A DNA stretch of 64,000 nt from Isurus oxyrinchus (lineage: Eukaryota): contig JANJGN010000003.1 of NCBI GenBank assembly GCA_026770705.1, positions 151,652,001-151,716,000 of the forward strand. Direction: 5' to 3'. The position numbers were made by a program, and so were the translations under genes. Positions 44,034 to 57,700 of this stretch are shown here, one piece after another (position 1 is the first letter of the stretch; the number at the start of each line of letters is the position of its first letter). Under the pieces are notes generated by a model, which searched no databases, was not told where the DNA came from, and saw nothing but the letters and a program-made list of their open reading frames with translations.

Positions 44034-44574
44034 TTGGATCCATGTGTAGTTTATCTGCGTTTGACTCAATCTCTCCGTTATTTTCAGAAAAGGAAACCTC
44101 GCTCACACGTTTGTCGCCGGGAGAACTTCCACAAGTATATTCTGATAGTGCCAGAGTGTGTGTTTCAAACGTGGTGCAGTCACTCCTGCGGGCAGCTACA
44201 GGCTCGGGTTTGATGCCGTAGTGTCTACTGGAAGGCAACCCGGTGAAAGACAGGGCTCCCGGCATGGGATCTAGCCAGGAGCGCATGTACCTACCATCGG
44301 GCGCGGCAGCAATCGGAGCCTGGTGCATGTATGGGTGATAGACAGTGGGCATATTGGCAGAACTCTGAGCATGGACCGGGCTCCAAGAGGTGCTGAAAAC
44401 TGTGGCTTTGGACTGGAAGTTGCATGGGGTGAAGTCGGGGTGCTCTGCAAGGGCTGCCTGCCGAGAAGACTGTGCCAGTGGACCCGAGGCATATCTGGAC
44501 GACAGCAGATCCTCATTCTCATGCATTATAAGGGAGTCGACATAATAATTGCTGATAGTCCCTGATGTCGACAT
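44034..44574 (-). CDS. hoxa9: Homeobox protein Hox-A9, exon 1
   Basis: MSTSGTISNYYVDS, CNFQSKATVFSTSWSPVH, PDGRYMRSWL (Hox9 activation region); donor A|GTAAGTA. Confidence 0.96.
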
Positions 44575-44599
44575 TCTCGGCAATGACACAGCAAGCGCC

Positions 44600-44800
44600 T
44601 CTGAAAATATGAAAGAGCAGATTTCACTGAAACAACTTACCGCCGCGACAAGTACAGTCTGCTAATATGGTGCAGACGCACTTCCTCGCCATTGGATAAG
44701 TTACTCACGTGATTCAAAAAACAACAATAAAATATAAATCAATCCGCAGCTTGTAACAAGGTCAATCTTTTATAGGGATAATTTTATATAGCAACTCCGT
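44600..44800 (-). promoter_or_regulatory. Hoxa9 leader and proximal promoter
   Basis: CCAAT (ATTGG 44691-44695), TCACGTGA 44705-44712, Pbx-Hox TGATTTAT on the minus strand, multiple TTTTAT. Confidence 0.65.
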
Positions 44801-47800
44801 ATGTTTTTTTTATGCAAAGGGATATAATCACCTCTATATATGGAGGTTGATTTCTTTGTTGCCAGCTGAGATATAAAAAAGTATTCCGTTCCAGTTCTTT
44901 TTCAGGGGGACTATTTTATATCATAATCAATCTTCCCATCAGATGCTCGTTTTTTTTAACGAACACCTTATAATCGTTAACCTTCACATAAAAGATTATG
45001 GAAAGAGTGAAACTATAAACTGCGGGAGAAAAACAACGAAGAAAGAGATTGGACAGGTATTTATTATTCATGCTTAGTAAAATTAAAAACGCATTCTTAA
45101 CAAATGAAAATCATTAACGAACTTTTCAATGGCACCGCTGAAAAGTGGCGCGTGTACCTGCAGCTGCTAAAGATCTTTCATTTCAAAAATGAGGCCACAT
45201 AAAACACACGGTGACAATCTCCGTTTTATAACAGTTTCAGCAATAAAACTACATGTTAGCAAACTATAGCCGTTCCAAAAAAGATTCTTTACCTCCAATA
45301 AACCATAACAAACTACAACTTCCGCATTCAATGCGCTATTTAAGTTGACAGATGCAGATGCGCGGACAAAATACATTTCTTGGGAAATAGGACAATTCTG
45401 CCGTCCTTCTCTTCAGATTCGTGTACTTTGTTGCTTCGGTCACTCACTGGCGCGTTCTGTGGAGAGTAAATGGAAAAGCTTCCCCGCACAGACGGTATTC
45501 GGAAACCTAATCTGTTATATGGTTAAGATACATTCCTTTCAATAGCAAATAAAAGCAAACAGTTAGATATATAATCAGATGTAAAACATAAGAGTCGTAT
45601 TTCAATGGAGTTAGAAGGATTCCTTATTACAGTGTTATCGGCCTATTAAACATTATATGTGCAACCAATTACTGTGCTTTAAAAACTTAGTAGGCCTCTT
45701 ACACATACGCACTCTGGGTATAAATATGTATAGCGATGGATGATTTTACTTAGTTACAATAAAATTAACAAATGGGATGTGAGTTGGAAGTCCAGCATCA
45801 TGGCTTATCATGATATAGTTTTAAAGTAAATTAATCTCATTTTTTAAAATAAAATTATTTTTTTTAAATCCTGAAACAATCCATAACATCCGCCAATGAT
45901 TTATCTTGTTGTCATTTTTCGGTTAGCATAATCTATCAATGCTATTTTAATATGAAATGTTTCATTTGACATGTAAGATTTAGACGTTAGTACCTTTGTT
46001 TATAGAACTCCAGTACAGGGGTTTCTCGAAGCACCATGATCATGTTATATTGTGTTGTGTTTCATTGGGAACGCTTTCTGAACATTATTTGATGTGCGCA
46101 GTAACTCAGAACCTAAAGGAAAATTGACAATCGTCATTCTAATCAAATGCAACTTGCCCTAATTTTTGAAACGCTTGGATCTTTGATGACAACCATTAAT
46201 GTGATTCGCTATCTGGACAACGTAGGCTTTCAAACGAGGCTTGTTTTAATGTCTATTTTATATTTCTTGGTTGTTATTTTACAATCTACGCATGCATGTA
46301 CTTTGTTTATTCCTGCTTCAACAGGCTTAATTTAAAAATACCTTCGGCGCATCTCGACGCTAGCAACAGGGTAATATAAAAACGACTATCTCCAAAATTA
46401 TCCTGGAGTATAAGCTGTTGCGTGATCAGATAACATAGAAATACCCATTAAACAAAGACAATCATCAGATCCCACATTAAAACAAATTGCTGTAGTCGTC
46501 GTGAATCGCTTGCGTTCCCCCCACCACCCGCTGCCTGTATAAACCCTCAATTTAAAATCTGCACAGCTAGCTGAAATGCAACTTCCCTTTCTCGATGTTT
46601 GGGTTCTCTGTATCCCAATCTTTCTTTAGATTCCTGTGCATTCCTTATGGGGAAGGGAAGATTCAGCCTCTCGCCCTGTGAGCCAACATTGACTATCTGG
46701 TCAGCGGAGTATTACAGCGACACAGGCGGAGTGCTGAGGTCTAGAGCAAAATCGAGAACCATTCAAGTCCAGTGTTGAGCCTCAGAAAGAAAACGTTTTG
46801 TGTTTCCTGTGCAGATGGCCTGAAATTAGGATTCAAATGTTGATTCTATATTTACAAAGTGAAGCTAAGGCACTCTGAAACTGCACCTCGCTTTAAAGAG
46901 TGCTTCCTCTAATTGAAATTTAGTTTTATTTATGCTAAGAAAATTTATAAAAACAACCCACCGTTTAAACGCCTGAAAGAATTTGCCCACAACCTTGGAA
47001 TGTGCCGCGCGTCTTGCTGCTGTACCTAAGATTTATAGTTATTTACGAAATGTATGATTTTAAATGATGTGGATGAATTAGTTGCAATTAGCACAGTGAA
47101 TTCTGCTCTCAAATGGATCACAGTTTCTCCCCCCCCCCCCCAAAAAAAAATGTAGTTACGAATTATGGTGAGTTGTCCGGTTTAGATGTTCAGTTCGCAC
47201 TTTTGTTTGAGCATTCAGTACAGGAAGCTCGCGTGTTTCTTGCAAATTGCAGCTCTCCGGCTAGGCAATGTAAAAACTAAACAGAGGAAGATGATCCTTT
47301 ACGTGCGTGGATACAACTCACCAAAGGTCTCAAATGAAACGAGTATCATCACACAAAGTCGGAACTGATTATTCGACAATACACAAAAATAAAATAATTC
47401 ACCCATTCTAATTTGAAGACGCATACAGGGGTAGCGGAATCTATCCTATTTTCATTCCATAGCAAGGCGAGTGGAAGAAGAATAAAGCGAGTTTTTTTTT
47501 AATCTGTTGTTATGAGTTGGTCCCTTTTCCTTGAGAATTATGTTTGTAACACATAAATATCAAATGTTGCATTAATTCCTGCAACTGATACAGCAGTTAA
47601 GAATTACTTCAAAATATGGTGCTCCCAAACTTTGTTTAATACTTGGCAGAATTATCCAGCCATTTACGATATTCATTGCATACACCTTGTCGTCAGAAAG
47701 ACTAGGCAAAATATGTCACAAATCAAAGTTTTCAAAATATTACAAGCCTGAGGCAAAACCGGACGATAAAAGTTTCAAAGTGGAAACCACATTCGATGTG

Positions 47801-50252
47801 TGATTTTCCTTTTGCGATTCTCACTGTATTATTTAAAATAAACCATAAAGGCTGACGCCTTTATTTCCGTTCAGATAACATCAGTGTGAAGTTGCACAGC
47901 CAATTTGTGGGCATGCAGTGTGCAATGACGACAACGTGTTCAAAGTGCTTTCATCATTTTCGAGTGTAATTGCCGTATAGCGTATAATTTGGCAAAGATT
48001 TACAAGATATATATAAAACATAAAATAAGACTAACCAAATCCTGGAGACATCTGCACGAGAACTATCAAAACTGTTCGAGCCGGTCCCGTGACCACCCTC
48101 AAGGGTTTAGTTTCAGGAAAGTCGGGACTGCAGACAATCTCAAATACCAAATGTTATGTTGGGTGTTGATTGTTTACGAGAGGTTGAAGCGCTTTTTAGT
48201 TCATCCACATCAATTCGAAATTAAATCCTCCATTTAAAACTGTGCAAAAGGACTGGGTGCACCGCCTTTTAGAAACCAAACTCTAATTTAACATTAAAGA
48301 AGCAAAGTGCAAAATTACTGTGGCTGCTGTTTTATTTTAAGCCTATAAACCATATCTGCCTCGATAGGAGTTTGCGAGCATCGAGTAAACAAAAAAAAAT
48401 ATTCGAGGTGAAAGCAGAATGATTTTGAAGTTAAAAAAAATTAAGATTTTGCTGCTAGATTAGTGAAAACAATGAGGGAATGCATGTACCTCACATAGTT
48501 GATGTACTTCTGAATTGAGAAAGATTATTTAAATAATAGTGTCTAAATGAAACGCAATACGCAACTACACAGAAATGTAATACTTAAAGAAATATTTCCG
48601 ATTCCTTGCCAAAATAATCCTATGTCAATACTCAGCAAATCAAAAGAACGAGGTTTAGCTATAATGTTGAGCTGAGCTGCATTTTAAGAGGGTCTGGATG
48701 TTACGAGGAGTGATGCTTTGAACAGCACAAACTTGACTGTGCTTTTGCTTTGTGAATCTTTAAATCCTACCGGAGAAAGTTTTCAGGCAGTGCATTCATA
48801 TTCGAATAGTATCACGACTCGGGTGTACAACAGCGCATGTTCTTCAGAAGATGTTATTTTGCATTGCACTGAAGAAAAAGATCAAGTTAAATGTTTCTAA
48901 CTAGCGTGTCGTTTCTTTTACAACAGGCCGTACATTGATATAGCTAATAAAGGGGATTATATAATTTAATATTGTAAATGAGATTTCATGCATTTTATTT
49001 GAATCAAGTATTTCTTGGTTACTTCATTTTTAAAAACGGTTATATGGGGATGTGGATAATTGTATTTAAATACATTTCCTACTATAAAGTCTTTGCATTC
49101 TCTTAGATAATGTGTTCATTTTACCATAGTAAGGTTGCCATATATATGCATTTATGTCTGGTGAAATGAATTTAATGCTGCATTCATAAGACTGCACTGT
49201 ATCTATCTTGTGGCAATGACTGTTGTACAATCATTTGGATTTTTAAGATTTTAAAAGTGTAATTCTAATCGGCCGCGCAACACGAATAAATAGAGCAACA
49301 GAATAAAGTGCCATGGTGTTTGTTTACTTGCTTTGCTTAGATTAAAGCTTCTGTTTGTCTCCTCTAAACAGCCAATATAATGGGACAAGTCTGCGTTCTG
49401 TGTTTAGTCTAGTTTCCTGCAGAGGCAGGAGCCGCGGACCGAGAAGCGCTTCCACTACATTCCGCCGAGGTCGCTGTTTCGAAGAGCAACCCAAATTTAC
49501 GCGCCCAGGCGCCATGTAATGATCATAACCGAGGCCTTGTGCTTTCAAGTAATTTCTTTGTCTTGCACATGGTAGAATGCATAGGTTTAAAACGCTTATC
49601 TTAAATCACTTGGCGCCGGTCCTATTTATTTTCGATTTTCATTGGGAATTATAAGATCAGCTATGCACAAAATGCACCAAGAAAAATGTTCCGTTTAGAC
49701 GATGTTAACATAACGATGACATATTTATCACTAACAAAGACGAAATCTGCAATGCATGGATTACGCCGCTGTGCAGATGAAATTGCAGTTATTTTCAGGA
49801 GAACTGTGTCGACCTACATCGATGTTTACAAATAATAATTCAGCAGCACATATATACTGCAAGGAAATCTAAAATTGATCATATTTAATTTAAACGTGAA
49901 CTTGATCGTTCTTAGAGAAAAAAATGAACAAATCTAATGCAAAACATTACAATTATAAAATCCCAACTGACAACAACGTTAAGGAAGCATGGCCCACTGT
50001 TTGCTCGCAAAGTATGGGAGGCACGCTGCTCTTCAAAAATTAATTCACAGAGTTGTATTAATCTTTTTTTTTTAAAAAAAGCTTGTCTAATAAACAATTG
50101 TTATATCGTTTTATAAAACATTGCTATTCCTGTCACAAAACATGACAATTTACTGCTGGAGATATGAAACCAAAACATTTGACTTATTCGTGGTTATTTA
50201 GTAACTGCGGTTTCTTTCCAAACCAGCGACAGAACTCACTGGCGAAGACGAT

Positions 50253-50336
50253 AACTGCAGTAATTCAGGCAGTTTCGTGTTGTAGAGATAGACTTGAGCC
50301 CCAACAACATGAAACTACCTAAATCACACATCAGTT
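50253..50336 (-). ncRNA. mir196: miR-196 precursor hairpin (syntenic position of mir-196b)
   Basis: Minus strand 50321-50300 reads TAGGTAGTTTCATGTTGTTGGG, the mature miR-196 sequence. The complementary 3p arm CTACAACACGAAACTGCCTGA follows, with a basal stem AACTG...CAGTT. It lies between Hox9 and Hox10. Confidence 0.97.
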
Positions 50337-51876
50337 CTATCTCAGCTCTTTAGATTCCTATCTTTGTACACACATAGGGATGACCTAGATGCACATTCAA
50401 CAAGCTTACTCAAATAGAAAAAAGTCACATTATGATGCTTCTCCTTACAACCTCGCATGCAGTTCACCAAATACGAAAGACACCCCTCAAACAAGCAATA
50501 TTGTGAATCCCTGTAATAATCTCCCAAGAAATTCCGATTTTTTTTGTTGCATTGCAGGCCAGATTTGTGTTTAAATGAATAGATTTAATGGCAAATTCAG
50601 CACGAGAATAATTGTTAGTTCCCCACTAAATATGGTGGGTTCTTTATTATCCCTGTGCAGGATTTCACGCGATCTGAATGCATGTCATTCACTCTAGTGA
50701 TGATAAGCCATAGCAACTTGTCTGTACTGCAATAATCACGGAGTTCAAGGTTTGTCCGAAGAAAAGAACTAGTCAGATGACATAGCCTACAGAGATATAT
50801 TTTCTTTTTCTCTCCTACCCCGCCACAAGAAAAAGACGAAACAGTAACTTTAACTTTTATTTGTGAACAGCAGTATTGGCATTTTAAAATATACTAGATG
50901 CAAGGTTGTTAGAAAGAAACTCTTACCTATAGGTCTCAAATATAGGATAATAGGCCTTAACATTCGTTCCTCTTACAGACCTTACCTTCATCGTAAATGT
51001 CTCCAAAGGTCTTATCTGCTGCTTTTTTCGATTCCTCACACTCTTCTGATTTTAGCCGATTAAAGGATCTGGAGTGTTTTGTGTTCAAAGAAAATCAATT
51101 TCCTACATCCGAGCCGTGCTCTGCTTCCTCTGTCTTCGTGGCTGTTCGCTCAACTGAAACCACTCGTCCAAGACAGCAACAACCCAGATATACTAGCAAG
51201 TCATAAAACTCAACAAAAGCCGACAAACGTTACAGCACCATTGCTATATAGCCCAGACAAATTACGACCGTCTAGGTAATATTTAAATAGATTGCAACGG
51301 TAATTGCCAGTCTTTAAACCCACCATTCCTGCTGAAAGCTTCCTCGACAGATAAGGTAAGGGAAAAAAATTGAACACAAAATGAAGTAAAAACAATATAC
51401 ATATACCTATCTCAAAGGACTCCGACCAAATACGTTTTATTCATCTTTCATGAAAACACAAATTTTGTTTACGTACACAGTGCAGCAGCAATAGGATTGA
51501 GCATAATTTGAGTCCTCATTCAGAGTATTTCATCTTAACAAACTCAAATGAATCAATTCTATTTGTTTTTCTTTACTTCTAAAAGTGAATCGACGGCAGT
51601 GAATAAAAGGTCCGACATTCTACTCTTTCGTCTTTGCAACAGTGTTTCACATGTACATGTGTCCTGATGCTTCTGTTCATGGTATGTGATATCTTTATGC
51701 AACAACACACTTTACAGCATATTCACATTTAACTTCTATTAACATGTCAGTATACGGTAGTTACTTATTTTGGAAATATTTTAACAGCATGGGTCATCTG
51801 TATTTAGACATTACAAAGTTTGATTTACTTAGCTGATAATTGGTAATTAGCACAATTAAAAGATTGTTGTCAGGTT

Positions 51877-51906
51877 CCCCCTCCCCCCCCCCCCCCCCCC
51901 CCCCCC
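51877..51906. repeat. Poly-C tract (poly-G in the Hoxa10 3'UTR)
   Basis: Seen directly. Confidence 0.85.
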
Positions 51907-52156
51907 GAGTTGTTTGAAAAATCATCATACAGGGCAATAACTTGTGTGCATGCCTTGCTTATCAATGGCAACACATTATTATAGCTACAGAAACAGACAC
52001 CCGCCACAAATAAAAACAAAACACGTAAATCGTAAATATCTACAACCAGCACACGGCTGAGAAGTCAGAGGTAAGTGGAGAAGTTTTAGTCCTTTAGCAA
52101 CACGAGCACAGCTTCTCGATGTCCCGTTAAAATCCGTAAACCAGTGTTTGTGTTTA

Positions 52157-52431
52157 TCATGAAAAGCTGAAGTTAGCTGTGAGCTCCCGAATCCTGTTCT
52201 CACGATTCATTTTCTTGAGTTTCATCCTGCGATTTTGAAACCAGATTTTGACCTGTCTGTCAGTCAGGTGGACACTGCGGCTAATCTCTAGGCGACGCTC
52301 TCGAGTCAGGTACATGTTGAAGAGAAACTCTTTCTCCAGCTCCAGGGTCTGATGTTTGGTGTAAGGGCAGCGTTTTTTTCTGCCACTCTTTGCAGTCAGC
52401 CAGTTGGCCCCGTTTTCAGCTTTCACCTCCC
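52157..52431 (-). CDS. hoxa10: Hox-A10 exon 2 (homeodomain); spliced protein 344 aa
   Basis: Long CT-rich tract plus TTATTAG|GG; [86 protein letters not shown]; 760+275 nt = 345 codons. Confidence 0.96.
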
Positions 52432-52444
52432 CTAATAAGCAAAG

Positions 52445-52541
52445 GGGTGAGAATGAGAGAGAGAGAGGGAGAACGAGAAAGAAAATAGAAAGATAAATAG
52501 AGTGAACCAGATAGAAGGTGAAGAGAGAGAAAGAGAAGAAA
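52445..52541. repeat. GA-rich tract forming an extended polypyrimidine tract before Hoxa10 exon 2
   Basis: Seen directly, adjacent to the acceptor. Confidence 0.75.
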
Positions 52542-53877
52542 GTTTATCTTGTTTCGAAATATAATTTTCAAAAGAAGTCTACGTGTGATGGCTATTTGCT
52601 TTTAACCGTACTCTTCACGCTAAAGTGTCACTAAATCTAAACATATTAAGATGCGCTATGAAATACTTAAAATGCTGCTGCCTCCAATTTTCAACACTCC
52701 GTTTTGACTCTGTGGCATTACATTTTAATTAGCATTGTACAATTCACGTTTTGTCAGCACGTTATGTGCATATCCACATGGAACACAAAACTTAACATTT
52801 TCAATTACTTTATGGCTCAAACGGCCGTGTGAAATGAAGTGCTATGTGGGGTAAAAGTGAGTTTTAGGTGCATTTACACTGAAGACGAAATTAGTTTGAA
52901 AACTCTATTTTGATGCTGTTAGTTTTTTTTTAAAATGATTGCTAAGCTTGTTATATACTTGGAGTGATGTTGTCTGGTTTCACTTTATCGTACAAGGATC
53001 TCGTTCATTCTCCTTTTTAGAATAGTTGGATACTGGTTTAATAATTAGTTATCCACTGAAAGAGCAGTTTAACTCCAATTATCGGTAAAATTCAACATTT
53101 CGCTGAGCACCAGTAGGCGTGTCTTCCCCTGTGGTATAATTTCCAACTTTTACAGCCCCGTTTCTCGCCATGTTAAAAACGCATGTTTATCTATTGCTTC
53201 AGTCTGAGAAAATTAAGCAAAGTTTTTCGTTTACGTAAACAAATCCAATGAGACAGATTGGAGTGTTTTCCTCATCGCTTGAATGTTTTAAGCCTTTTTA
53301 ACACCTAATTGTTTCACGTTATTTGGAATAACTTTATAAAACGATTCCTTCCGAAGTTCGTTAAAGTTAAGACTAAAATTGCCCACAGAACGTCAACCAA
53401 TTTGTTGCGATGCCCCCATTTAGTTGACCACTGGATCTCAGACACATTAAAAACTAAATAACGACTAAATTATATTTGTAAGTTCAAATTTGATTTTTTT
53501 AATATAAGGTGAATAATAACTGCACTGGGCAAATAGTATCAAGCATCTTAAAGTAAAAGATGAGAGGATCAGCGTTTCGTACTTTGAAAACTTTTCTATA
53601 TATTTCACGTTTTTTTTCCCGAAAAGAGCGCTGGAACATGAAACATCACTGGATTCCTTAGAGTATTATTTATTGGCTGTGCTGTGTTTACTTTGGACCC
53701 TGTGTGCAAATATGTCCTTCTATGCGGTCCGCTTAAATAACTGCAGAAAGCATTCGTGGTTTGTAACTTATCTGACAAGTTTAGAATGTGGCTACAATTG
53801 ACTCCGGAGCGTGGGCCCGTGCTATAAACTATAGTAGGCATTAATTTTTACAGCATAGCTCACGCCCAAAAATAAAA

Positions 53878-53891
53878 AGTTCACAAGGTCA
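53878..53891 (+). promoter_or_regulatory. DR2 RARE in the Hoxa10 intron
   Basis: Perfect AGTTCA ca AGGTCA flanked by AATAAA/ATAAAA Hox/Cdx-type sites. Confidence 0.7.
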
Positions 53892-53992
53892 GAATAAAAC
53901 CCCCTTTGTTACGCTTGTTGGCTGTACCTGCCACGTCTACCCGTTTCTGAGTGCTGGCTGTATAAACTTCCCTCTGCCTCTTATTTACCTAC

Positions 53993-54752
53993 CTTTTGTT
54001 TCTTTCTCAGGAGAGTTTTTACTGCTTTCTGAAGGGACTGGAGATGACTCTTCGTTCGCTGAAGAAGCGGGAGCTTCTGCCTCTTCTCTTTCCGAACCGC
54101 AGGTTAAATGACCGGGGGATGTCCCTTCACTTCCTTTTCTCCCCAACTCAGTCGGGGTCGAAGCTGAAGAAGGGGGTGTTCCAAAACGGATCTGGGACTG
54201 GGGTACGAATGGAGAGGCCCCAACCTGCCCCGTGTTGTTATAAAGTGTCTGTTTGGATGTCGGATAGGCTTGGGACAGACGGAAATAGCCAGGGACAGGA
54301 ACCCCGCCGCTAGTAGTCGTGTCACTATTGGAGCACGAATCTGATGTTAGCCTTGGGAACGTGGAAAGATCTGTTGCTGCTGCGCTTTTGGGACATTTCT
54401 CCGAATCATATAAACAATATGCATTCTCTTCTTTGATATTCTGGGGGAAGGAACATGCTGCTACTTGCTGGGTTGCAGGTTGTTCCATGCGACAGGACCT
54501 TGGGGGATCTGACCAGACCTCCATCCCGCTCATGTAAGGATGAGAAGTCAGGACCATACTCTGAGAGTTGTTCTCGCTGCGTTTGCTCAGAGATGGGAAA
54601 AGTCCACAGTTCTGGGTGCCGTAAGACAGCTCAGAGGCAGGCGGCAGGTACACGCTGCTGTTGGGGTAATAGGTTCCTTCCCCGCCACGGCCCACGCTGA
54701 TCAGAGAATCTACTAAAAAGGAGTTTGCAGACGGGCTGTCTGAGCATGACAT
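53993..54752 (-). CDS. hoxa10: Homeobox protein Hox-A10, exon 1
   Basis: MSCSDSPSANSFLVDSLIS, CSFPQNIKEE, VPVPGYFRLSQAY; donor G|GTAGGT at 53993/53992. Confidence 0.95.
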
Positions 54753-57700
54753 TGTTGTGGGATAATTTGGCGAAAGCAGAAGATATCCAGTTCAGGCTGA
54801 CATTTCTTGTGCAAACACGCTGAATATGATTAGAGATACCTCCGCAGCACGACAGGCGGAATGAGCCAATCGAATGGCACAGTTGGACATAAGCCCCTCC
54901 TCCACGGAGAGCTGCGTCACGAGAACTGCAATAAGGTCACCATATGTATTCGGTAAACTGCAAAAGCCTCTAAATGCATCTTTATTTACTCGGTTCTACT
55001 TTATTGGAATCACGTCCTTCAAATAAAATAAAAGCGGGGCTCCAATGTGTAACGGGGTATCACCAGAAGGTTCAGCAATGCATAACGCGGCGTTACTGAG
55101 TCATAGGGGCAATCCGTTTATTATTTTAAATTGTTCACATATGAAGTTGACAAAGGGGAAAGTTTTAGTCCTGTTATTATGCAGTTTTAATCACACGCTA
55201 AGATTCCCTGGCGGCTACAGGCGAGAAAACATGAGTAATCTTGACTTTCACGGGTCTGTCTAGGATTAACTCGCCGGTTGCTGCTACATTTTCACAGTTC
55301 TCACTATAATTCTGATCCACACTGGGGCTCTGCTGATTGTTACTTCCAGTACTATCCTGTGACGCGTGTTCTGAACATACAGCCGCTAGATTGCATTTCT
55401 AGTTTCATGTTTGTAGTCTAAAGTTTAGTAGGTGAATGCAACATGCTGTAGCTCTGTAGGTTAAGTGTAGAAGGTCAGTGACAACAAACTAATAAAGTAA
55501 CATAACCCATTTATTTCATTTCCTCTTCTATTTCACCAGTATTACATATTAGAAGTTAATTGAGCCTTGACCATTTCTGATATTTTATACTTACCATCTC
55601 AATAAATCGAAACATTTTCAAAATGTTTTAACCATGTGTTCTTCGGCTGTCTGGGCTACAGTAGAGAGCATTTACCACATCTATAAAATCGATCTCATCA
55701 TTTCGTCTTAAAAAGAGAAAACAAGACTGTTAAACAGAAATTTACAAGACTCTCAGCTACAAACCGGTCAAGTTTAAGACAAGGCGCACAACAGAAGCTT
55801 CATCCAGAGTTCCTATCGCCACCCTATCCGAAAGGTAACTGTTGAAAACAAAGTCAGACAGAAAAACTGCAACTACCCTGCCTCTGTTTCAGGAGGGAAG
55901 CGGGAACTTCGGTTTGTGAACTTTTCTTTGGGATTGGGGTGGCGTTCAAGGACAAATATAGACCAAGTGACGATATTATCCTTATTATTAGTGCTAGCAG
56001 AAGTTAAGTGGTATAGGAATTAAGGAGTAAGCCAATATCCAATTACCCCCACTCCCCAACCCCCACAAATAAAAACATCTTGGCCAAAGGAAACGTGCGG
56101 ACAGTTTCTCTTCGAATTGATGATTTTGTGGCATATCTGTACAATGTGACATGTATCAATGCGGCTCCAAATAGGAGACCTGCTATCTCTACTTTGTTCG
56201 GCCACCTCTGTAATCAAGTGCAGCCAACAATGACGCTCTCAAATGTAGTCCTTAGGTTGGGATCGGGAGTAAACAGTGTAATTTCACAGTGACAAAGGAC
56301 TTAATCTTCAGTCTCTGGCATTGCTGCGTTTTACTGCGAGTTCATTTTAAACCGCCCGCGAACTGGTCCCCACCACCAGCAAACCCCAATCTGCCCTATT
56401 ATTCCAATTGTTGTTATTTTAACTTCTGGCGCTGGAATAAAGCTCAAAAAATGTTGCTAATCCAAAGCAGGTTATTAAAAATATCGTTTGTGGTAAAAGC
56501 CAGCGGGATATGAAGGTCGGTTTTGCACGCATCGTGTTTGCTAAGGGGCCGTCTCAGAGGATCCCTTATTCTTGCTTTTTTTTTTAAACACAAACAACTG
56601 CTTAGAATTATCACGGTCGTCCAGAAAACCTATAAAAACTTAAATGTGCTTTATTAAAAAAAAAAGAAAATTTTCCTTTTGCGGTCCCACTGTGCCCATG
56701 ACACGTATGATCACGGGAGCATACAAAGATTTAATGGGAGGGAAATAACAATTGTCATCTATAACAGAGTCTCATATATAAAGGCTCAAGCTCCTGTACA
56801 CCAAATGCTAACTAGCAGCGCGTTTACGTGTTGAAGGGAGGGTATTTATCTGGTTTTCGTGGTAAATATATCATTGCTTAATACATTGATTCCATATTTG
56901 GATAATTTTATTCGTGCATTTTTGGATGGGTAATAGGCTTAAACGTTTATAACCCAGTATCCCAGTAAAACTGTAACGGGGAATGGAGATTGGCTGCCGC
57001 AGTTTCTAAGGCCACTGCAGTCATTTCTGGACTTTATTGGTAGTAACGGGGCGAGGGCCGTGTGATTCCCTGTATACATTAAAAACACACGCACTGGCAA
57101 GTCATTGAAACACGAAGGACTTGCGGGGGAAAAAGTTTCTTCCCTAGTTTCTAAGGTGTCGTAACTCCTCATTACGGCATTGTTAACAGTTTAGAAATAT
57201 GATTAACTCTGCCGAGAAGGAGCTAGGGGCAGATGAAATGGCTTCCCCGTGTAACATGACAAAAAATATATAAGAAATAGTTTTAGGAGCCGCCTAAATC
57301 CGCCTGTTGTGCAACATTTCTTGTGGCGTTTAACACATCCCCCTTGACATAAGAAAGAATAACGAAGACAATTTTCTCTTCGCCAAGCTGTATCGATCGT
57401 GGCTATTGCAAGATTTCTCAATTTCTCCTTCAACGCTCCAGCAATAAACAAACATCTTGAAACATTGCATCGAATGAGGTAAACGATACGTTGTCCAGCC
57501 AGTGGTGAAAGAGCGAACGTAGAAAGCAATGGAGTGAGTGGTGGTTCCCTGGTAAATAAATGATTTCAAAGCCTGAACAGAGCAGGCTGACCGCATTCAT
57601 AGCTCGGACTCGTTCTTAGCCTAGATCGTGAACTTAAGACTGAAAGACAGACAGAATGGTCTTTCACTGGGTTTTCCTAAATAAAGATTCGAAGAGAAGT

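What the first reader, a model, noticed from the sequence alone, without database searches (positions are those of the whole stretch)
54753..54803. HOXA10 N-terminal extension is broken by an in-frame stop, making a 3-codon uORF
Seen: an ATG at 54803, exactly 17 codons upstream of and in frame with the main ATG, reads MSA*TGYLLLSPNYPTT-MSC (TGA at 54794-54792). As I recall, human HOXA10 begins MSARKGYLLPSPNYPTTMSC. The segment is therefore nearly intact at the peptide level after the stop. Inference: either the leader is conserved as an RNA/DNA element and the mammalian extension arose by stop loss, or this lineage has a minimal regulatory uORF or uses readthrough.
Basis: partly seen in the sequence, partly recalled or inferred. 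Interest (0 to 1): 0.7.

Follow-up and report, generated by a model that had tools for sequence, protein, structure and literature searches.

The report
Ancient Hox10 uORF-extension switch in shark
In this shark the upstream start codon of the body-patterning gene Hoxa10 runs into a stop after three codons, whereas many bony-vertebrate Hoxa10 models and some hagfish and lamprey Hox10 models run on from it into a longer protein; it is likely an ancient translation-damping element whose stop was probably lost again in bony vertebrates.

Summary
Confirmed: ATG 54803, TGA 54794-54792, main ATG 54752, 51 nt apart and in frame, in a shark Hoxa10. The extension is not mammalian. It is in 87 of 114 bony-vertebrate models and 0 of 14 cartilaginous-fish models, which suggests the frame is closed across sharks, rays and chimaera (indirect; no reads were laid on it). 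The upstream ATG is a group-10-wide leader element. This shark's Hoxb10 has the same three-codon uORF with TGA at codon 4; its Hoxd10 has the ATG 50 nt upstream, out of frame; three hagfish and lamprey Hox10 models have it in frame and open, with Trp at codon 4. Conservation looks nucleotide-level, not peptide-level. Codon 4 reads TGG (cyclostomes), TGA (shark A10, B10), Arg (bony A10; AGA in one teleost), so a stop in the jawed-vertebrate ancestor, reopened in bony vertebrates, needs fewest steps. A later stop gain in cartilaginous fishes remains possible. Likely function: a leaky, reinitiation-permissive uORF that damps Hoxa10 output and removes the long isoform. No readthrough signals were found. 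Transcription start and translation were not measured. Hox uORFs are known (PMC8892498); this case and the paralogue-wide homology were not found in print.

The parts
54792..54803 (-). Three-codon uORF (Met-Ser-Ala-stop); upstream ATG 54803-54801 with G at -3 and T at +4; TGA 54794-54792 followed by A
54753..54791 (-). 39-nt spacer between uORF stop and main ATG; homologous to codons 5-17 of the bony-vertebrate extension; no further stop, no indel
53993..54752 (-). Hoxa10 coding exon 1; main ATG at 54752 (A at -3, T at +4); out-of-frame ATG at +6 (38-codon ORF); next in-frame ATG at +196 (A at -3, G at +4)
52432..53992 (-). Hoxa10 intron (GT...AG), inferred from identity of the spliced product to database models
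52157..52431 (-). Hoxa10 coding exon 2 (homeobox) to stop codon
54866..54870 (-). Inverted CCAAT box, 118 nt before the main ATG; same place in Hoxb10 (-118) and Hoxd10 (-116); promoter role inferred
54823..54829 (-). Initiator-like consensus match (A at 54827, 24 nt before the upstream ATG); candidate transcription start, not measured; consensus recalled
54888..54890 (-). Further in-frame ATG (32 codons to the same TGA); lies upstream of the CCAAT box, so probably outside the main transcript

Best explanation
The shark Hoxa10 leader holds a three-codon upstream reading frame at a start codon shared by group-10 Hox genes, which likely damps Hoxa10 translation and would leave only the short protein, and its stop probably dates from early jawed vertebrates and was lost again in bony vertebrates. 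Shown: the anatomy; the homologous upstream ATG in this shark's Hoxb10 (same stop) and Hoxd10 (out of frame). Shown at the level of database models: the open frame in bony Hoxa10 and in cyclostome Hox10. Inferred mechanism: transcription starts about 75-85 nt before the main ATG; scanning ribosomes meet the upstream AUG in a middling context; some pass it and start at the main AUG; the rest make a tripeptide and terminate, and only part reinitiate over the short 39-nt gap. Output would therefore rise with start-codon stringency (eIF1/eIF5) and ternary-complex supply. The same AUG would be productive in bony Hoxa10 (long isoform) and more strongly inhibitory in Hoxd10 (overlapping uORF). Inferred history: Trp codon (cyclostomes) to TGA (jawed-vertebrate stem) to AGA (bony Hoxa10).
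For: Hoxb10 of the same genome: upstream ATG at -63, in frame, TGA at codon 4; no difference is listed at those places in the one independent DNA run that covered them, of 4 runs laid (X9, another organism). Hoxd10: upstream ATG at -50, 30-codon overlapping uORF; 5 bird- or mammal-type Hoxd10 models that read through the leader imply the same 50-nt spacing. Extension in 0 of 14 cartilaginous versus 87 of 114 bony Hoxa10 models (Fisher p 2e-8, rows not phylogenetically independent). Control: a RefSeq model of a ray's Hoxd10 does start at the upstream ATG, in frame (P0168). 16 of 16 cartilaginous Hoxb10 models start at the second Met. Trp at codon 4 in lamprey P0374 and hagfish P0343 and P0391. 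One teleost model read in another frame fixes the third base of bony codon 4 as A (P0312). Parsimony from a TGG root: TGA at the Hoxa10 ancestor costs 2 steps versus 3-5. Neutral K80 grid with assumed branch lengths: median P(TGA) 0.95 with, 0.92 without, shark Hoxb10. In-frame Hoxd10 extensions in models of a ray, two soles and an unnamed teleost cluster suggest that gaining the extension is tolerated repeatedly. Mouse Hox leaders are short and three tested uORFs inhibit reporters in a stringency-dependent way; a Hoxd10 uORF is among the 13 conserved ones (PMC8892498, sections 6, 9, 12). Reinitiation depends on uORF length and intercistronic distance (PMC5972666, passages).
Against: No measurement of transcription start, translation or regulation in any shark. 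The TGA itself was read in one genome only; its spread across cartilaginous fishes is inferred from where protein models start, 10 of 25 cluster members were not seen, and 27 of 114 bony models also lack the extension, some while a close relative has it. Shark Hoxb10's frame has 3 stops and a 12-nt insert, so its TGA could be independent decay of a Trp codon. The third base of bony codon 4 rests on one teleost model; if it is left free, TGA and TGG tie at 3 steps and median P(TGA) falls to 0.59-0.84, minimum 0.36. The model is neutral and ignores selection against stops. Two Lampetra models of the same gene as P0374 start at the second Met. The sole models are flagged LOW QUALITY and the gecko model UNVERIFIED_CONTAM.
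Confidence: 0.5

Rival explanations
1. The uORF is real but recent in direction: the in-frame extension was kept without a break from the vertebrate ancestor to bony vertebrates, and cartilaginous fishes lost it by a Trp-to-stop transition, separately in Hoxa10 and Hoxb10.
For: Three cyclostome Hox10 models have the frame open with Trp at codon 4; TGG to TGA is one transition; the Hoxb10 frame is visibly decayed; length of the bony extension is 17 aa in 84 of 87 models; no loss-and-regain is needed.
Against: Needs 1-2 more steps when the bony codon is AGA; P(TGG)+P(Arg) at the Hoxa10 ancestor had medians of about 0.03-0.28 across six settings; the shark frame has stayed otherwise open and indel-free, so reopening is easy; Hoxd10 models show repeated gains of an extension.
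Confidence: 0.25
2. The leader is conserved as promoter or 5' exon DNA, and the upstream ATG is either not transcribed or hardly used, so the uORF has no regulatory role.
For: No third-position bias between Hoxa10 and Hoxd10 leaders (4/4/6); likeness persists in a frame not started by the ATG; no folded RNA structure (z -0.4 to +1.5); the ATG would be only about 24-30 nt from a predicted cap; the CCAAT box region is as well conserved as the ATG.
Against: The first seven bases from the upstream ATG are invariant in all three shark paralogues and Met-Ser-Ala/Gly recurs in cyclostome models; a Hoxd10 uORF lies in the CAGE-defined mouse leader and was checked against ribosome profiling (PMC8892498 sections 6, 12; identity with this ATG likely, not verified); mouse Hoxa9 starts 83-85 nt before its ATG and shark Hoxa9 has its CCAAT box at -121, a geometry that would put the Hoxa10 start upstream of 54803 (analogy only).
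Confidence: 0.17
3. The TGA is an assembly error or a private allele of this individual.
For: No reads were laid on this stretch, so the base is not checked directly.
Against: Same stop at the homologous codon of Hoxb10, also in an independent run; 0 of 14 cartilaginous models carry the extension; TGA is one step from both the cyclostome and the bony codon.
Confidence: 0.05
4. The TGA is read through or recoded (Trp, Arg, selenocysteine or RNA editing), so sharks still make the long isoform.
For: The frame is otherwise open to the main ATG; the cyclostome residue is Trp, which A-to-I editing of UGA would give (established knowledge).
Against: The base after TGA is A, not the C of the known leaky context (context recalled); no SECIS family among 5 Rfam matches in 44500-54000; no stable fold near the stop; Hoxb10 has two stops in tandem.
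Confidence: 0.03

Closest known systems
Conserved inhibitory Hox uORFs (Ivanov et al. 2022, PMC8892498): Hoxa1, a9, a11 tested; Hoxc10 and Hoxd10 listed as conserved in tetrapods
   Same: AUG-started uORF in a short Hox leader, suboptimal context by that paper's definition (no G at +4); the Hoxd10 uORF is likely the direct paralogue of this ATG.
   Different: Hoxa10 does not occur in the main text (0 hits) and has no uORF in bony-vertebrate models because the frame is open; the shark uORF is 3 codons against 7-21 for the tested ones; homology across Hoxa10, b10, d10 and cyclostome Hox10 is not described in the parts read; the SI Appendix PDF could not be read.
Short reinitiation-permissive uORFs (GCN4 uORF1 / ATF4 uORF1 type; reviewed in PMC5972666, PMC10275272)
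   Same: Very short uORF ending upstream of the main AUG, unstructured spacer.
   Different: Single uORF with no second inhibitory uORF in the leader, only 39 nt to the main AUG; a short gap would make low ternary complex reduce rather than induce output; reinitiation-promoting elements not tested.
17-aa N-terminal extension of bony-vertebrate HOXA10 (database models, e.g. P0012 bichir, P0003 coelacanth, P0025 lungfish)
   Same: Same start codon position, 13 of 17 residues match the consensus if the shark frame is read through.
   Different: Closed by TGA at codon 4 in the shark; use of the long isoform in bony vertebrates was not verified here beyond annotation.

Membership tests
Conserved inhibitory Hox uORF (PMC8892498) | AUG-initiated ORF upstream of the main AUG that does not run into the main frame | tested here: met
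Conserved inhibitory Hox uORF (PMC8892498) | Upstream AUG in suboptimal context (no purine at -3 and/or no G at +4) | tested here: met
   G at -3, T at +4 in Hoxa10, b10 and d10
Conserved inhibitory Hox uORF (PMC8892498) | Lies inside the CAGE-defined leader | not testable with these tools
   No CAGE or raw RNA reads; only CCAAT-box geometry and an initiator-like match
Conserved inhibitory Hox uORF (PMC8892498) | Conserved as a uORF across species | tested here: inconclusive
   Shared with Hoxb10; 0 of 14 cartilaginous models extended (indirect); not a uORF in 87 of 114 bony models, so it would not meet the paper's placental-mammal criterion
Conserved inhibitory Hox uORF (PMC8892498) | Translated, and inhibits the main ORF in a stringency-dependent way | not testable with these tools
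   Needs ribosome profiling and reporters
Reinitiation-permissive short uORF (GCN4/ATF4 uORF1 type) | Short uORF with stop upstream of the main AUG and unstructured spacer | tested here: met
   3 codons, 39-nt gap, fold z -0.4
Reinitiation-permissive short uORF (GCN4/ATF4 uORF1 type) | Second, inhibitory uORF downstream giving stress induction | tested here: not met
   No ATG between the stop and the main ATG
Stop-codon readthrough / selenocysteine recoding | Leaky stop context, 3' stimulatory structure or SECIS element | tested here: not met
Conserved-peptide uORF | Substitutions biased to synonymous third positions | tested here: not met
   14 differences in 48 nt between shark Hoxa10 and Hoxd10: 4/4/6 by position; one paralogue pair only, low power

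The most novel reading that the evidence does not exclude
Vertebrate group-10 Hox genes share one upstream-AUG element older than the hagfish-shark split, and evolution has repeatedly re-set its output by one-base changes: N-terminal extension (cyclostomes, bony Hoxa10, some Hoxd10), minimal uORF (shark Hoxa10, Hoxb10) or overlapping uORF (most Hoxd10). The annotated N-terminus of HOXA10 in bony vertebrates is a re-opened uORF, and the switch tunes Hox10 dose between paralogues and lineages.
Probability: 0.35. Interest if true: 0.7.

Novelty: new variant of a known kind. Interest (0 to 1): 0.5.

Why it matters
Hox10 proteins pattern the posterior trunk and limbs, and whether Hox output is tuned at translation is debated since the Hox IRES claims were challenged (PMC8892498; bioRxiv 10.64898/2026.03.29.707813). 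Here one homologous start codon sits in three natural configurations, two of them in one genome, which gives a ready-made allelic series for reporters. It also offers a dated case of a protein N-terminus probably arising from a uORF by a single stop-loss at the root of bony vertebrates, and it questions which HOXA10 start codon is the working one.

Tried and rejected
No read-level check of the Hoxa10 stop or of the transcript's 5' end was obtained. No RNA holder on record was listed for the stretch. On Hoxb10, 2 of 4 runs gave nothing and one RNA-guess contig ended at the main ATG; this says nothing about expression. Hoxc10 was not found in this genome: 77 homeobox matches, and the unplaced HoxC contig holds only Hoxc9 in the part read, 4100-48490. 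The Hoxb10 protein search returned only cartilaginous fishes, 16 of 16. A bowfin Hoxb10 model reads through its leader (P0390), but its 5' part seems shifted by a base, so I dropped it from the final estimate (used, left out). The first estimate (P(TGA) 0.88-0.97) had no cyclostome data and is superseded. RNA folding gave no structure. A splice that skips the stop was not supported: the site list shows no room for an intron. A CpG route (CGA to TGA) was considered and is disfavoured by T at the first base in cyclostome Trp, shark Hoxb10 and Hoxd10. Rows dropped before counts: 5 of 120 truncated Hoxa10 hits, 1 of 15 truncated cartilaginous model, 9 of 120 Hoxd10 hits without the start motif; only the best 120 of 269 and 120 of 222 hits were listed. 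Literature searches found no paper on a Hoxa10 uORF or on this homology; the library lacks most subscription papers. Earlier findings of the scan: none relevant.

Full report
What is there. The window is a shark HoxA cluster on the minus strand (Hoxa4, a5, a6, a7, a9, a10). Hoxa10 is intact: 344 aa from two exons, 99.1% identical to a Mustelus model and 92.4% to chimaera. The genome's Hoxb10 exon 1 is 100% identical over 99% of the query to a Carcharodon model, so the animal is probably a mackerel shark. An ATG at 54803 lies 51 nt before the main ATG and in frame; codon 4 is TGA (54794-54792); the other 13 codons are sense.

Distribution of the extension. Among the best 120 of 269 Hoxa10 hits, 115 retain the second-Met motif. 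Of the 114 that are bony vertebrates by name or sequence, 87 begin at the upstream Met (84 with 17 residues, one each with 16, 18 and 61) and 27 do not. They include bichir, gar, sturgeon, teleosts, coelacanth, lungfish, amphibians, reptiles and birds, so the extension is not a mammalian novelty. Codon 4 is Arg in 81 and Gly in 3 of 84. Of 15 listed members of the cartilaginous-fish cluster (sharks, skates, rays, chimaera; 25 members, 10 unseen), 14 begin at the second Met, one is truncated, none is extended. The contrast is strong (p 2e-8) but the rows are related and annotation is noisy: Megalops and smelt species differ among close relatives. As a control, a RefSeq model of a ray's Hoxd10 does begin at the upstream ATG when it is in frame (P0168). 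I infer that the frame is closed across cartilaginous fishes; I did not see their DNA.

The element is shared by paralogues. A DNA search of the genome with the leader found Hoxd10. Hoxb10 and Hoxd10 leaders align to Hoxa10 above all 500 shuffles; six other Hox leaders do not. All three have an inverted CCAAT box 116-118 nt before the main ATG and the same first seven bases at an upstream ATG. In Hoxb10 it lies at -63, in frame, and is closed by TGA at codon 4, followed at once by TAA and later a third stop. A contig of an independent DNA run from another organism covers this leader with no listed difference at the uORF (X9; 1 of 4 runs covered it). In Hoxd10 it lies at -50, out of frame, and opens a 30-codon ORF that overlaps the main start. 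Five bird- or mammal-type Hoxd10 models that read through the leader in the main frame imply the same 50-nt spacing and match the shark at up to 14 of 18 residues in that frame. Peptide-level likeness is thus what nucleotide conservation alone gives, and differences between shark Hoxa10 and Hoxd10 fall 4/4/6 on codon positions. Some Hoxd10 models have the ATG in frame: Narcine (16 aa), two soles (17 aa, flagged low quality), an unnamed teleost cluster (19 aa; 5 of 15 listed) and a gecko record flagged as contaminated.

Outgroup. A profile of exon-1 sequences (71 hits) reached cyclostomes. Hagfish Hox10IV has an open 16-residue extension whose first six residues are Met-Ser-Ala-Trp-Thr-Gly, against Met-Ser-Ala-stop-Thr-Gly in the shark. 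A Lethenteron Hox10 model has a 31-residue extension and a second hagfish gene a 16-residue segment, both with Trp-Lys at positions 4-5; two Lampetra models of that lamprey gene start at the second Met. The element is therefore older than the cyclostome-gnathostome split, and the oldest state may be an open frame.

Direction. Codon 4 is TGG in cyclostomes, TGA in shark Hoxa10 and Hoxb10, TAC in shark Hoxd10, and Arg in bony Hoxa10. One teleost model read in a shifted frame fixes its third base as A (P0312), and repeated Arg-to-Gly changes fit AG as the first two bases. From a TGG root, TGA at the Hoxa10 ancestor costs 2 steps against 3 (AGA), 4 (TGG) and 5 (AGG); if the bony codon were AGG, TGA and TGG tie. 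A neutral K80 calculation over 192 assumed settings gives median P(TGA) 0.95, or 0.59-0.84 when the bony third base is freed and Hoxb10 is kept or dropped. This is a toy: branch lengths are mine and selection is ignored. HoxA and HoxB lie on different subgenomes of the second duplication (PMC7269912, passage), so a shared stop would predate the jawed-vertebrate radiation. I put stop loss in bony vertebrates at about two to one over stop gain in cartilaginous fishes.

How it likely works. The start site is not measured. Mouse Hoxa9 starts 83-85 nt before its ATG (PMC8892498 section 6), shark Hoxa9 has a CCAAT box at -121, and Hoxa10 has one at -118 and an initiator-like match at -75, so the upstream AUG is probably about 25-30 nt inside the leader. 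Both AUGs have a purine at -3 and U at +4. Leaky scanning would feed the main AUG directly. Ribosomes that take the upstream AUG would terminate after three codons and could reinitiate only if they regain initiator tRNA within 39 nt; length and distance govern this (PMC5972666, passages). Those that miss would meet an out-of-frame AUG at +6 or an in-frame one at +196. The predicted result is a partial, stringency-sensitive damping and a single isoform. Readthrough finds no support: A follows the TGA, no fold stands out, and no SECIS family was among 5 Rfam matches.

Against this reading. Nothing here shows transcription, translation or regulation. The TGA was read in one assembly. Hoxb10's stop may be independent decay. 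The conserved sequence may matter as promoter DNA.

Relation to what is known. Ivanov et al. 2022 list 13 Hox genes with conserved uORFs, including Hoxc10 and Hoxd10, and test three; Hoxa10 is absent from the main text and appears in the readable supplements only as a gene-list row. Seen: abstract, sections 6 and 12, part 1 of 2 of section 9, passages, four spreadsheets searched; the SI Appendix PDF, which holds the start sites and uORF table, could not be read and may bear on novelty and on the start site. PMC7269912, PMC2746220, PMC10275272, PMC5972666 and bioRxiv 10.64898/2026.03.29.707813 were seen as passages only. Eight searches found no report of a Hoxa10 uORF or of the homology. It works like a Hox uORF; membership is met in anatomy and untested in function.

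Verdict. Real feature, new variant of a known kind, interest 0.5. The value lies less in the shark stop than in the paralogue-wide element it exposes.

Noticed in passing
window 44575-44691, minus strand (Hoxa9 leader): No ATG within 117 nt of the Hoxa9 main ATG, although PMC8892498 reports a 7-codon Hoxa9 uORF conserved from mammals to fish in an 83-85 nt leader; the shark may lack it.
   Followed up: no
L024 3970-4030, minus strand (Hoxa11 start): An in-frame ATG 39 nt before the usual Hoxa11 start and an out-of-frame ATG 16 nt before that, opening a 22-codon overlapping ORF.
   Followed up: no
L018, L019 (G000:C3247, 48-kb unplaced contig): A GC-rich Hoxc9-like gene buried in simple repeats; no other Hox gene found on the part read.
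   Followed up: partly
window 50257-50330, minus strand: mir-196 precursor between Hoxa10 and Hoxa9, above the gathering score; known feature.
   Followed up: yes
window 54745-54747 and L017 7151-7153, minus strand: An out-of-frame ATG 5 nt after the main ATG is shared by Hoxa10 and Hoxb10 (38- and 21-codon ORFs), absent in Hoxd10; it could trap ribosomes that miss the main start.
   Followed up: no
window 52432-53992 (Hoxa10 intron): [quoted passage not shown]
   Followed up: no
protein P0312/P0389 (unnamed teleost Hoxa10b): The upstream ATG appears out of frame in this model, so some bony Hoxa10 duplicates may have turned the extension into an overlapping uORF.
   Followed up: no
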